Source of the DNA: Escherichia coli
GTDB taxonomy: Bacteria; Pseudomonadota; Gammaproteobacteria; Enterobacterales; Enterobacteriaceae
NCBI RefSeq assembly: GCF_024502345.1
Contig: NZ_JALDNN010000001.1
Direction: 5' to 3' (one strand)
Length of the DNA stretch: 64,000 bases
This document shows positions 9,574 through 12,500 of this stretch, piece by piece. Numbering within the stretch: the stretch's first letter is position 1; every line of letters starts with the position of its first letter. A program made the position numbers.

Positions 9574-12500
9574 GTTCGGGTTTGTAGTCCTGATAAGACG
9601 CGGCAGCGTCGCATCAGGCAATGAATGCGAAACCGCGGTGTAAATAACGACAAAAACAAAATTGGCCGTTTCGGTCAGGGCCAACTATTGCCTGAAAAAG
9701 GGTAACGACATGAAAAAATTAACCTGCTTTAAAGCCTATGATATTCGCGGGAAATTAGGCGATGAACTGAATGAAGATATCGCCTGGCGCATTGGTCGCG
9801 CCTATGGCGAATTTCTCAAACCGAAAACCATTGTGTTAGGCGGTGATGTCCGTCTCACCAGCGAAACCTTAAAACTGGCGCTGGCAAAAGGTTTACAGGA
9901 TGCGGGCGTTGACGTGCTGGATATCGGTATGTCCGGCACCGAAGAGATCTATTTCGCCACGTTCCATCTCGGCGTGGATGGCGGCATTGAAGTCACCGCC
10001 AGCCATAATCCGGTGGATTATAACGGCATGAAGCTGGTGCGCGAAGGGGCTCGCCCGATCAGCGGTGATACCGGACTGCGCGACGTCCAGCGTCTGGCTG
10101 AAGCCAACGACTTTCCTCCCGTCGATGAAACCAAACGCGGTCGCTATCAGCAAATCAACCTGCGTGACGCTTACGTTGATCACCTGTTCGGTTATATCAA
10201 TGTCAAAAACCTCACGCCGCTCAAGCTGGTGATTAACTCCGGGAACGGCGCAGCGGGTCCGGTGGTGGACGCCATTGAAGCCCGCTTTAAAGCACTCGGC
10301 GCGCCCGTGGAATTAATCAAAGTGCACAACACGCCCGACGGGAATTTCCCCAACGGTATTCCTAACCCGCTACTGCCGGAATGTCGCGACGGCACCCGCA
10401 ATGCGGTCATCAAACACGGCGCAGATATGGGCATTGCCTTTGATGGCGATTTTGACCGCTGTTTCCTGTTTGACGAAAAAGGGCAGTTTATTGAGGGCTA
10501 TTACATTGTCGGCCTGCTGGCAGAAGCATTCCTCGAAAAAAATCCCGGCGCGAAGATCATCCACGATCCACGTCTCTCCTGGAACACCGTTGATGTGGTG
10601 ACGGCCGCGGGCGGCACGCCGGTGATGTCGAAAACCGGACACGCCTTTATTAAAGAACGTATGCGCAAGGAAGACGCCATCTACGGTGGCGAAATGAGCG
10701 CTCACCATTACTTCCGCGATTTCGCTTACTGCGACAGCGGCATGATCCCATGGCTGCTGGTCGCCGAACTGGTGTGCCTGAAAGGAAAAACGCTGGGCGA
10801 ACTGGTGCGCGACCGGATGGCAGCGTTTCCGGCAAGCGGTGAGATCAACAGCAAACTGGCGCAACCCGTTGAGGCGATTAACCGCGTCGAACAGCATTTT
10901 AGCCGCGAGGCGCTGGCGGTGGATCGTACCGATGGCATCAGCATGACCTTTGCCAACTGGCGCTTTAATCTGCGCTCCTCCAACACCGAACCGGTGGTGC
11001 GGTTGAATGTGGAATCGCGCGGTGATGTGCCGCTGATGGAAGCGCGAACGCGAACTCTGCTGACGTTGCTGAACGAGTAATGTCATTACTTTCCCCCTCA
11101 CCCTGACGCTCTACTGCCTGCGAAGAGAAGTGAGCACGGAACTTTCTTCTCCCCCTCGCCCCTTTGGGGAGAGGGCCGGGGTGAGGGGCGAGGCGACAAT
11201 AGAACAGGAACAACGATGACAAATCTAAAAAAGCGCGAGCGAGCGAAAACCAATGCATCGTTAATCTCTATGGTGCAACGCTTTTCAGATATCACCATCA
11301 TGTTTGCCGGACTATGGCTGGTTTGCGAAGTGAGCGGCCTGTCATTCCTCTACATGCACCTGTTGGTGGCGCTGATTACGCTGGTGGTGTTCCAGATGCT
11401 GGGCGGCATTACCGATTTTTATCGCTCATGGCGCGGTGTTCGGGCAGCGACAGAATTTGCCCTGTTGCTACAAAACTGGACCTTAAGCGTGATTTTCAGC
11501 GCCGGACTGGTGGCGTTCAACAATGATTTCGACACGCAACTGAAAATCTGGCTGGCGTGGTATGGGCTGACCAGCATCGGACTGGTGGTTTGCCGTTCAT
11601 GTATTCGCATTGGGGCGGGCTGGCTGCGTAATCATGGCTATAACAAGCGTATGGTCGCGGTGGCGGGGGATTTAGCCGCCGGACAAATGCTGATGGAGAG
11701 CTTCCGTAATCAGCCGTGGTTAGGGTTTGAAGTGGTGGGCGTTTACCACGACCCGAAACCGGGTGGCGTTTCTAACGACTGGGCGGGCAATCTGCAACAG
11801 CTGGTCGAGGATGCGAAAGCGGGCAAGATTCATAACGTCTATATCGCGATGCAAATGTGCGACGGCGCACGAGTGAAAAAACTGGTCCATCAACTGGCGG
11901 ACACCACCTGTTCGGTGCTGCTGATCCCCGACGTCTTTACCTTCAACATTCTCCATTCACGTCTCGAAGAGATGAACGGCGTTCCGGTGGTGCCGCTGTA
12001 CGATACGCCGCTTTCCGGGGTTAACCGCCTGCTAAAACGTGCGGAAGATATTGTGCTGGCGACGCTTATTCTGCTGCTGATCTCCCCGGTGCTGTGCTGT
12101 ATTGCGCTGGCGGTAAAACTCAGTTCACCAGGACCGGTTATTTTCCGCCAGACTCGCTATGGCATGGATGGCAAGCCGATCAAAGTGTGGAAGTTCCGTT
12201 CGATGAAAGTGATGGAGAACGACAAAGTCGTGACTCAGGCGACGCAGAACGATCCGCGCGTCACCAAAGTGGGGAACTTTCTGCGCCGCACCTCGCTGGA
12301 CGAATTGCCGCAGTTTATCAATGTGCTGACCGGGGGGATGTCGATTGTCGGGCCACGTCCACACGCGGTGGCGCATAACGAACAGTATCGCCAGCTCATT
12401 GAAGGCTACATGCTGCGCCACAAAGTGAAACCGGGCATTACCGGCTGGGCGCAGATTAATGGCTGGCGCGGCGAAACCGACACGCTGGAGAAAATGGAAA

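What the first reader, a model, noticed from the sequence alone, without database searches (positions are those of the whole stretch)
11092..11193. GC-rich palindromic repeat separate from the REP family in the cpsG-wcaJ spacer
The element (CCCCTCACCC ... GGGGAGAGGGCCGGGGTGAGGGGCGAGG) differs from the REP/BIME units at 9.5 kb and 14.1-14.4 kb. It can form a long imperfect hairpin just upstream of wcaJ and might affect mRNA stability or processing between the manCB block and wcaJ.
Basis: seen in the sequence. Interest (0 to 1): 0.3.

Follow-up and report, generated by a model that had tools for sequence, protein, structure and literature searches.

The report
BoxC repeat pair between cpsG and wcaJ
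The GC-rich palindrome upstream of wcaJ is a copy of the long-known enterobacterial BoxC repeat (also called PIT element or TMECO triplex motif), so it is ordinary, although the spot it occupies holds a hairpin of this kind in most related bacteria.

Summary
Window 11092-11193 lies in the 135-nt cpsG-wcaJ spacer and folds far better than shuffled sequence.

It is not REP. Bases 11153-11188 are identical (36/36) to a published BoxC/PIT/TMECO copy of E. coli K-12. A 50-nt core recurs about 11 times per E. coli genome.

The left half (11095-11152) is single-copy. It is a decayed inverted partner plus linker, so the whole is a typical inverted BoxC pair.

Only 508 of 5,426 complete E. coli genomes carry this long spacer. 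Most (K-12, CFT073, Sakai) have a 54-nt spacer with a simple hairpin, CCCTTACCC...GGGTAAGGG.

Across 78 Enterobacteriaceae spacers, 82% are strongly structured here. Several genera carry BoxC pairs at the same site. The short hairpin shows compensatory base changes.

There is no promoter and no terminator.

Most likely it is an RNA stem-loop inside the colanic-acid operon transcript, supplied here by an unstable repeat. The function is inferred, not shown. The family is already known, so interest is low to moderate.

The parts
9710..11080 (+). cpsG (phosphomannomutase), the upstream gene of the spacer
   Evidence: ORF ends at 11080. Its 1371-nt length and name come from RefSeq annotation of matching loci.
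11081..11215 (+). cpsG-wcaJ spacer, long allele (135 nt)
   Evidence: Full-length matches in 508 of 5,426 E. coli genomes. Most others have a 54-55 nt spacer.
11095..11130 (-). Decayed left BoxC unit in inverted orientation: CCCTCACCC-TGA-CGCTCTACT-GCCTGC-GAAGAGAAG. Only the outer block, CCCTCACCC, is intact.
   Evidence: Collinear with intact left units CCCTCACCC-TAA-CCCTCTCCC-loop-GGGAGAGGG of K-12 pair 17+18 and of other genera at this same spacer. Left unit plus linker is 56-68% identical to those. Single copy in E. coli.
11131..11152 (+). Linker with T-rich leader (TGAGCACGGAACTTTCTTCTCC) between the two units
   Evidence: Resembles the linkers GACTGCACCGAGCCATCTTTTCC (K-12, upstream of yagE) and GATTGCACGGAGCTGTCTTTTCG (Enterobacter, same spacer). 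The last 9 nt belong to the dispersed 45-nt match.
11153..11188 (+). Intact BoxC / PIT / TMECO unit, type B with one mismatched pair: CCCTCGCCC-CTTTG-GGGAGAGGG-CCG-GGGTGAGGG-G
   Evidence: The only match in the window to the TMECO consensus. 36/36 identical to K-12 TMECO no. 3 and to the Kluyvera georgiana copy at the same spacer.
11094..11105 (+). 5' arm of the outer 12-bp stem that closes the whole element
   Evidence: Pairs with 11177-11188 in the minimum-energy and centroid folds. Inverted repeat I1.
11177..11188 (+). 3' arm of the outer stem (the outer G block of the intact unit)
11185..11193 (+). Extra overlapping G block, GGGGCGAGG. It is perfectly complementary to CCTCGCCCC (11155-11163) and so offers an alternative pairing.
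   Evidence: Inverted repeat I6, 10/10. The same extension occurs in Enterobacter hormaechei L031. An 8-nt deletion here in E. coli E69 destroys the motif.
11166..11188 (+). Four G-runs that fit a G-quadruplex pattern on the mRNA strand
   Evidence: Pattern match. No evidence that it forms.
11203..11218 (+). wcaJ ribosome-binding region and ATG (ACAGGAACAACGATG). It is left unpaired by the element.
   Evidence: Invariant or nearly so across genera. Unpaired in the centroid folds of both alleles.
11216..12610 (+). wcaJ (undecaprenyl-phosphate glucose phosphotransferase), the downstream gene
   Evidence: ORF. RefSeq annotation of matching loci.

Best explanation
Identity (about 0.97 sure). The feature is a BoxC repeat, also published as a PIT element or TMECO triplex motif, in its inverted-pair form.
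- An intact right unit lies at 11153-11188.
- A mutationally decayed left unit lies at 11095-11130.
- A linker joins them, and the two outermost blocks close the whole as a 12-bp stem.

Role (about 0.35-0.4 sure, inferred).
- The element is transcribed inside the colanic-acid operon mRNA.
- It replaces the simple C-tract/G-tract hairpin that most E. coli and most Enterobacteriaceae have at this same spot, about 20-30 nt upstream of the wcaJ start.
- The selected feature is the RNA stem-loop.
- It probably acts as a barrier to exonucleases or as a processing point. That would set the relative stability of the cpsB-cpsG message and the wcaJ message.
- It is not a promoter or a terminator, and it does not occlude the wcaJ ribosome-binding site.

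DNA level.
- The runs and nested inverted repeats make the element prone to slippage and collapse.
- This explains why E. coli has a long allele and a short allele.
For: Shown:
- 36/36 identity to K-12 TMECO no. 3 and a match to the published consensus.
- A 50-nt core at 48,732 places in 4,875 of 5,426 E. coli genomes, median 11 per genome, nearly all chromosomal.
- The same (-,+) architecture as the K-12 lldD-trmL pair 17+18.
- The left half is single copy and collinear with intact left units elsewhere.
- Long allele in 508 genomes, and a short hairpin allele in K-12, CFT073, 20A24 and Sakai.
- 78 cpsG-wcaJ spacers from Enterobacteriaceae species: median folding z = -3.15, and 82% have z < -2.
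- Strict TMECO matches in this spacer in Enterobacter, Kluyvera, Buttiauxella, Lelliottia, Superficieibacter and Pluralibacter.
- The outer G block always starts 30-43 nt before the ATG.
- Short hairpin in Escherichia, Salmonella and Citrobacter: 98% of cells paired, and 3 of 10 pairs with compensatory double changes. Covariation is 0.214 against 0.120 in shuffles (0 of 500 as high), and slid controls reach at most 0.089.
- Sense-strand RNA is more stable than antisense in 48 spacers against 21 (p = 4e-4, not corrected for relatedness).
- No promoter-like site and no U-tract terminator. The Shine-Dalgarno sequence and AUG are unpaired.

Inferred:
- The exonuclease-barrier or processing role, by analogy with REP hairpins in polycistronic mRNAs (established knowledge).
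- REPs also punctuate this operon at 9.5 kb and 14.1-14.4 kb.
Against: - No expression, 3'-end or half-life data were available for this operon.
- According to PMC4666352, reporter tests of PIT elements found no promoter or terminator activity and no effect on RNA polymerase.
- That paper also found no positional bias of TMECOs relative to genes or operons.
- About 89% of E. coli genomes that have the locus lack the long element.
- A few species have lost any hairpin here: L023, L029, L021 and L081 have z near 0. So it is dispensable.
- Hairpin maintenance and paired changes in a DNA palindrome can also arise without selection, through template switching between the arms.
- The 78 spacers are phylogenetically related, so the statistics overstate independence.
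Confidence: 0.55

Rival explanations
1. It is a neutral or selfish repeat with no role for the host at this site. The BoxC pair is simply an old resident of this spacer. It decays or collapses to a residual hairpin, and the apparent structure conservation is a by-product of palindrome dynamics such as arm-to-arm template switching and slippage.
For: - The left unit is decayed.
- The element is absent from most E. coli.
- Microindels occur in the runs, and E69 has an 8-nt deletion.
- Two taxa have tandem expansions in this spacer: 65 nt x 3.3 in L056 and 41-43 nt x 3.1 in L030.
- BoxC also occupies the orthologous hrpB-mrcB spacer in both Escherichia and Enterobacter, so site persistence is not special to this operon.
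- PMC4666352 reports excess local variability and collapse of inverted pairs to hairpins.
Against: - Stems are kept while loops and flanks vary freely, with three compensatory pairs.
- 82% of spacers are structured across genera whose neutral intergenic sequence should be randomised.
- There is a sense-strand bias in stability and in G-U pairs.
Confidence: 0.33
2. It acts at the DNA level. The G-rich strand folds back into an intrastrand purine-motif triplex when single-stranded. This stalls replication and promotes recombination or rearrangement next to the O-antigen region.
For: - Per PMC4666352, oligonucleotides of this class (type B with one mismatch) form triplexes in vitro with Tm about 70 C.
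- The same paper reports that TMECO loci are more variable than control sites.
- The locus is dimorphic.
Against: - The same paper found no triplex signal in vivo by DMS footprinting and none in duplex DNA.
- Flanks of long and short alleles show no change in divergence at the spacer. Differences over the 500 nt of cpsG plus the 500 nt of wcaJ next to the spacer: window against C325 (long), 17+7. Against K-12 (short), 21+8. Against Sakai (short), 17+6.
- This reading does not explain the covarying short hairpin, which has only two blocks and cannot form a triplex.
Confidence: 0.07
3. It is a regulator of wcaJ translation, either through an RNA G-quadruplex (11166-11188) or through switching between the alternative pairings of CCTCGCCCC with GGGGAGAGG or GGGGCGAGG.
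For: - Four G-runs fit a quadruplex pattern.
- A perfect alternative 10-bp pairing exists, 11154-11163 with 11184-11193.
- The element ends 22 nt before the ATG.
Against: - The adjacent C-rich arms out-compete a quadruplex in every predicted fold.
- The Shine-Dalgarno sequence and AUG are unpaired in both alleles.
- Most strains manage with a plain hairpin.
- PMC4666352 excluded a quadruplex for the DNA oligonucleotide by NMR.
Confidence: 0.03
4. It is an intrinsic terminator or attenuator after cpsG, or an internal promoter for wcaJ.
For: A strong GC-rich hairpin lies between two genes.
Against: - No U-run follows the stem, and there is no sigma-70-like site. The only terminator-like hit (11061-11085) has 3 GC pairs and is at chance level.
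- PIT elements lacked both activities in published tests.
Confidence: 0.02

Closest known systems
BoxC repeat = PIT (potential intrastrand triplex) element = TMECO triplex motif of E. coli (Holder et al. 2015, PMC4666352; listed as BoxC in Petrillo et al. 2008, PMC2267715)
   Same: - The 36-nt core is identical to K-12 copy no. 3.
- It fits the consensus CCCTCNCCC-N3-6-GGGNGAGGG-N3-GGGNGAGGG.
- It is intergenic, chromosomal and multi-copy.
- It occurs as an inverted pair, a type B unit with a decayed type-A-like partner (second loop TGA against TAA).
- The locus varies between strains.

   Different: - The partner unit is largely decayed.
- This locus was not in the parts of the published catalogue that I read (K-12, Sakai, CFT073, W3110, HS, CB9615). 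Of these, K-12, CFT073 and Sakai were checked here and carry the short allele.
- Occupancy of the same spacer in several genera is not discussed in that paper.
K-12 inverted TMECO pair 17+18 in the lldD-trmL spacer
   Same: - The same order: inverted unit, linker, T-rich leader, forward type B unit.
- It also lies between two co-oriented genes.
- The right unit is 34/36 identical.

   Different: - The K-12 pair has both units intact and a longer linker.
- In the window, the inner blocks of the left unit are mutated. Left unit plus linker is 61% identical.
REP/BIME elements
   Same: - Dispersed GC-rich palindromes in intergenic spacers of operons.
- They are present in this same operon at 9.5 kb and 14.1-14.4 kb.
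- They are known to act as mRNA 3'-end stabilisers (established knowledge), which is the working analogy for function here.
   Different: - A different sequence family. There is no hit to the REP-derived Rfam model at the spacer.
- About 11 copies per genome rather than hundreds.
- No associated REP transposase is known.
Short cpsG-wcaJ hairpin of K-12, Salmonella and Citrobacter (CCCTTACCC-loop-GGGTAAGGG)
   Same: - The same position relative to the cpsG stop and the wcaJ start.
- Its arms differ from the outer BoxC blocks CCCTCACCC/GGGTGAGGG by one compensated pair.

   Different: - 10 bp and 54-nt spacer, against a 95-nt multi-branch element.
- No triplex-capable third block.
- Not a dispersed repeat.

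Membership tests
BoxC / PIT / TMECO | Sequence fits 5'-CCCTCNCCC-N3-6-GGGNGAGGG-N3-GGGNGAGGG-3' | tested here: met
   Pattern match at 11153-11187/8, the only one in 64 kb. 36/36 identical to TMECO no. 3 in Table 1 and Table S8 of PMC4666352.
BoxC / PIT / TMECO | Multi-copy, dispersed, intergenic and chromosomal | tested here: met
   48,732 places in 4,875 of 5,426 genomes. Median 11 and maximum 20 per genome, with 21 places on plasmids. It lies between the cpsG stop and the wcaJ start.
BoxC / PIT / TMECO | Often an inverted pair of one type A unit (loop TTA) and one type B unit (loop CCG) | tested here: inconclusive
   The right unit is type B. The left unit keeps the outer block and a TGA loop (TAA in intact copies), but its inner blocks are 6/9 and 6/9. 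It is collinear with intact pairs, yet no longer fits the consensus.
BoxC / PIT / TMECO | The single strand folds into a purine-motif intrastrand triplex in vitro | not testable with these tools
   Reported for the type B one-mismatch class by CD and NMR, Tm about 70 C, in PMC4666352. ViennaRNA models hairpins only.
BoxC / PIT / TMECO | The locus is unusually variable among strains, and inverted pairs collapse to a hairpin | tested here: met
   Long allele in 508 genomes and a 54-55 nt hairpin allele in about 4,140. There are indels in the runs and an 8-nt deletion in E69.
REP / BIME | Matches the REP consensus (Rfam naRNA4 model as proxy) | tested here: not met
   No hit in 11081-11215 at E <= 10, while 9532-9651 and 14104-14401 score up to 79.7 bits.
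Intrinsic terminator | GC-rich stem directly followed by a U-run | tested here: not met
   The stem ends at 11188-11193 and is followed by CGACAATAGAACAGG. The scan finds none there.
MITE | The full-length unit is repeated, with terminal inverted repeats and target-site duplications | tested here: not met
   The left 69 nt are single copy in every genome. No direct repeat flanks the element. PMC4666352 found no transposase remnants near TMECOs.
Curated cis-regulatory RNA (Rfam 15) | Reaches a family's score threshold | tested here: not met
   No family matches the spacer.

The most novel reading that the evidence does not exclude
BoxC pairs are not recent, unstable insertions. They are ancient, site-stable elements that serve as, or decay into, selected stem-loops within operons.

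In this reading the cpsG-wcaJ spacer has carried one since before the enterobacterial genera diverged. The long, short and absent alleles then form a natural series that could finally reveal what BoxC does.
Probability: 0.3. Interest if true: 0.55.

Novelty: already known. Interest (0 to 1): 0.27.

Why it matters
As a sequence feature it is a routine copy of a repeat family described in the 1990s, so it changes nothing by itself.

The by-products may be useful, because the function and origin of BoxC are still open. The main paper on it asks whether the motif was "inserted or deleted during evolution" (PMC4666352).

- The same operon spacer holds BoxC pairs, or their collapsed hairpins, in many genera.
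- A second locus, hrpB-mrcB, also holds BoxC at the orthologous spot in both Escherichia and Enterobacter.
- The short hairpin covaries.
- E. coli itself segregates a long allele and a short allele.

Together these favour long persistence with repeated decay over recent insertion. They also give a defined place to test for an RNA-level role.

Tried and rejected
- **Rfam.** A permissive scan of 9000-15000 and a gathering-threshold scan of the whole window found nothing at the spacer.
- **Promoter and terminator scan.** Nothing credible was found.
- **Is the left half a dispersed repeat?** No. Sensitive blastn finds it only at this locus, in the 508 long-allele genomes.
- **Recent import of the long allele from another genus?**
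  - Flanking divergence is the same against long-allele and short-allele strains.
  - Outside E. coli, no sampled species of comparable spacer length has a spacer more than 77% identical. The higher global scores for L030 and L056 come from much longer spacers.
  - So there is no support for import, but it is not excluded.
- **Is this locus in the published TMECO catalogue?**
  - Neither 'wcaJ', 'cpsG', 'manB' nor 'colanic' appears in the held supplement.
  - The lists for K-12, Sakai, CFT073, W3110, HS and CB9615 have no entry at this locus.
  - Sakai was checked directly and has the short allele.
- **MAFFT alignment of 32 short spacers from distant genera (A2).** It misregisters the 3' arms, so covariation was counted only on the 15 well-aligned Escherichia, Salmonella and Citrobacter sequences (A3).
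- **Literature on a cpsG-wcaJ hairpin.** Nothing relevant was found. Bachellier 1997 is not held in the library.
- **Minus-strand ORFs over the spacer** (11098-11301 and 10965-11258). Not pursued. Single-base indels between long alleles argue against coding.
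Full report
**1.

The stretch 11092-11193 lies in the 135-nt spacer between the cpsG stop codon (11078-11080) and the wcaJ ATG (11216). 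Gene names come from RefSeq annotation of near-identical E. coli loci.

It contains nested inverted repeats:
- 11094-11112 with 11170-11188 (19 nt, 84% complementary);
- 11152-11162 with 11178-11188;
- 11154-11163 with 11184-11193 (10/10).

As RNA the spacer folds at -58.5 kcal/mol, against -44.4 +/- 4.0 for dinucleotide shuffles (z = -3.5; none of 200 as good). A 12-bp outer stem (11094-11105 with 11177-11188) encloses three small hairpins. With DNA parameters z is -3.05.

The element is not REP. Rfam's REP-derived model naRNA4 hits 9532-9651 and 14104-14401 but nothing in the spacer, even at E <= 10.

**2. What it is**

The right third, 11153-11188 (CCCTCGCCCCTTTGGGGAGAGGGCCGGGGTGAGGGG), is the only match in the 64-kb window to the published consensus CCCTCNCCC-N3-6-GGGNGAGGG-N3-GGGNGAGGG. 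It is identical over all 36 bases to 'TMECO no. 3' of E. coli K-12 MG1655, listed in Table 1 and Table S8 of Holder et al. 2015 (PMC4666352).

That paper states that the motif was first described as BoxC and later as the PIT (potential intrastrand triplex) element. Petrillo et al. 2008 (PMC2267715) also list BoxC among the known E. coli stem-loop repeat families.

The repeat is dispersed. A 50-nt core (11144-11193) matches 48,732 places in 4,875 of 5,426 complete E. coli genomes, with a median of 11 and a maximum of 20 per genome. All but 21 places are chromosomal.

**3. The left part**

The left part (11084-11152) is not dispersed. Sensitive blastn finds it once per genome, only in the 508 genomes that carry this long spacer. 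It is nevertheless related to BoxC.

It aligns collinearly with intact inverted units, CCCTCACCC-TAA-CCCTCTCCC-loop-GGGAGAGGG, followed by a linker and a T-rich leader. These are seen in:
- the K-12 lldD-trmL pair 17+18;
- the K-12 copy upstream of yagE;
- the cpsG-wcaJ spacers of other genera.

In the window the outer block CCCTCACCC is intact, the loop is TGA instead of TAA, and the two inner blocks are each 6/9. Left unit plus linker is 56-68% identical to intact copies, against 86-100% for the right unit.

The whole element (11094-11188) is therefore an inverted BoxC pair. It consists of a type B unit and a decayed type-A-like partner. This is the arrangement Holder et al. describe for all five K-12 pairs.

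**4. Polymorphism within E. coli**

Of 4,648 genomes with the locus well covered, 508 have the long spacer. The rest have a spacer of 54-55 nt. This was checked directly for K-12, CFT073, 20A24 and O157:H7 Sakai. Its only structure is the hairpin CCCTTACCCC-loop-GGGTAAGGGG.

The arms of that hairpin differ from the outer BoxC blocks by one compensated pair.

The coding flanks show no haplotype break. Counting differences over the last 500 nt of cpsG plus the first 500 nt of wcaJ:

| Window compared with | Allele | Differences |
|---|---|---|
| C325 | long | 17+7 |
| K-12 | short | 21+8 |
| Sakai | short | 17+6 |

Long alleles differ among themselves by single-base indels in the C and G runs. 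In strain E69 an 8-nt deletion removes the last block. This matches the local variability, and the collapse of inverted pairs to a hairpin, reported by Holder et al..

**5. Beyond E. coli**

I extracted the cpsG-wcaJ spacer from 76 species-level genomes of Enterobacteriaceae and added the window and K-12, giving 78 spacers.

- Strict TMECO matches occur in this same spacer in Enterobacter, Kluyvera, Buttiauxella, Lelliottia, Superficieibacter, Pluralibacter and two unnamed lineages.
- Degenerate forms occur in Leclercia, Phytobacter and Huaxiibacter.
- The usual layout is C-C-G ... C-G-G, an inverted unit followed by a forward unit.
- The Kluyvera georgiana right unit is 36/36 identical to the window's.
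- Other taxa have a single hairpin of the same flavour:
  - CCTTTGCCC/GGGCAAAGG in the Citrobacter freundii group;
  - CCCCTCTCCC/GGGGGAGGGG in Leclercia;
  - CCCCTCCC/GGGAGGGG in Lelliottia;
  - CTCTCCCC/GGGGAGAG in Kosakonia.
- Both long and short forms occur within Enterobacter, Lelliottia and Leclercia, as in E. coli.
- The outermost G block always starts 30-43 nt before the ATG.
- The ribosome-binding region ACAGGAACAACGATG is nearly invariant.

Across the 78 spacers the median folding z-score is -3.15, and 82% are below -2. A few (L021, L023, L029, L081) have lost any structure.

In the 15 well-aligned Escherichia, Salmonella and Citrobacter sequences, the 10-bp hairpin has 98% of cells paired. 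Three of its pairs show compensatory double changes. The covariation score is 0.214 against 0.120 in shuffles (0 of 500 as high), and at most 0.089 when the partners are slid.

The sense-strand RNA is more stable than the antisense in 48 spacers against 21 (Wilcoxon p = 4e-4; 208 against 160 G-U pairs). None of these statistics is corrected for shared ancestry.

**6. Is this site special?**

As a control I looked at a second BoxC locus, the K-12 hrpB-mrcB spacer (pair 1+2). In Enterobacter cloacae and E. hormaechei the orthologous spacer also holds a BoxC unit. It sits at the homologous position, just upstream of the conserved AATTTTGAGAGAT block.

Shared occupancy across genera therefore looks like a property of BoxC in general, at two of two loci examined. 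Holder et al. do not discuss this, and they leave open whether the motif was inserted or deleted in evolution.

The pattern of intact pairs in several distant genera, with repeated within-genus collapse to hairpins, is easier to explain by long persistence and decay than by repeated precise insertion. Site-targeted insertion is not excluded.

**7. How it most likely works**

Shown:
- The element lies inside the spacer of two co-oriented operon genes.
- It has no sigma-70-like site and no U-run after the stem.
- It leaves the wcaJ Shine-Dalgarno sequence and AUG unpaired in both alleles.
- A stable stem at this position is conserved and covaries.

Inferred:
- What is maintained is an RNA stem-loop in the polycistronic colanic-acid message.
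- It would act as an exonuclease barrier or a processing point, as REP hairpins do in other operons (established knowledge).
- REPs punctuate this same operon after cpsB and after wzxC.
- In 9% of all E. coli genomes (11% of those with the locus) the stem is supplied by a BoxC pair instead of a minimal hairpin.

I put identity at about 0.97 and this functional reading at about 0.35-0.4.

The main rival (about 0.33) is that the element is functionless here, and that hairpin retention reflects palindrome mechanics. Three further readings are each unlikely, for the reasons given under rival explanations:
- a DNA triplex that promotes instability;
- a G-quadruplex or structural switch that controls wcaJ translation;
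- a terminator or promoter.

According to Holder et al., the purine-motif triplex does not form in RNA and was not detected in vivo.

**8. Verdict**

This is a known repeat family in a known configuration, so I score it 'already known' and of modest interest.

The parts worth keeping are the natural allelic series at a defined operon position and the cross-genus site conservation. Both bear on the unresolved function and origin of BoxC.

Noticed in passing
window 9656-9705 (+): Strong match to the Rfam algC RNA motif (RF02929, 78.2 bits, E about 1e-15). It lies directly upstream of the cpsG start at about 9710. This candidate cis-regulatory RNA is typical of phosphomannomutase genes.
   Followed up: no
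window 9532-9651 and 14104-14401: REP/BIME clusters in the cpsB-cpsG and wzxC-wcaK spacers (Rfam naRNA4, up to 79.7 bits). Together with the BoxC spacer, three structured punctuation points lie within 5 kb of one operon.
   Followed up: partly
window 11061-11085: A 9-10 bp hairpin, GACGTTGCT-GAACG-AGTAATGTC, spans the cpsG stop codon. It is predicted in both the long and the short alleles. The terminator scan flagged it at chance level.
   Followed up: partly
L088 536-730 (K-12 hrpB-mrcB); L089-L092 about 750-900 (Enterobacter): BoxC also occupies the orthologous hrpB-mrcB spacer in E. coli K-12 (pair 1+2), Enterobacter cloacae and E. hormaechei. It sits at the homologous position upstream of a conserved block. 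Cross-genus site conservation of BoxC therefore seems general.
   Followed up: partly
L056 1245-1458; L030 1324-1458: In two Enterobacteriaceae lineages the cpsG-wcaJ spacer has expanded into tandem arrays built from BoxC blocks plus linker: 65 nt x 3.3 at 94% matches, and 41-43 nt x 3.1.
   Followed up: partly
L006 (E. coli E69, GTDB representative), spacer 1374-1500: This strain has the long allele with CCCTCACCC mutated to CCCTCCCCC. An 8-nt deletion between the repeated GAGG motifs also destroys the TMECO consensus.
   Followed up: partly
L005 237-1545 (K-12 GM4792, upstream of yagE): The K-12 copy identical to the window's unit (TMECO no. 3) lies about 120 nt from an ISEc19 transposase gene. 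It seems to have lost the outer part of its own left partner: only ...CCCCAAAGGGGAGAGGGG remains.
   Followed up: no
window 20886-20924, 40540-40663 (-), 42960-43034, 58189-62491: Other Rfam hits place the window: JUMPstart (start of the O-antigen cluster), the His operon leader, STnc240, and three tRNA genes with identical scores. The window runs from the colanic-acid cluster through the O-antigen and his regions.
   Followed up: no
L086 (O157:H7 Sakai) 26976-27029: O157:H7 Sakai has the short spacer, whereas O55:H7 strains DEC5B and DEC5D have the long one. This may reflect the recombination around the O-antigen region in the O55-to-O157 switch that I recall from the literature, which I did not check here.
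   Followed up: no
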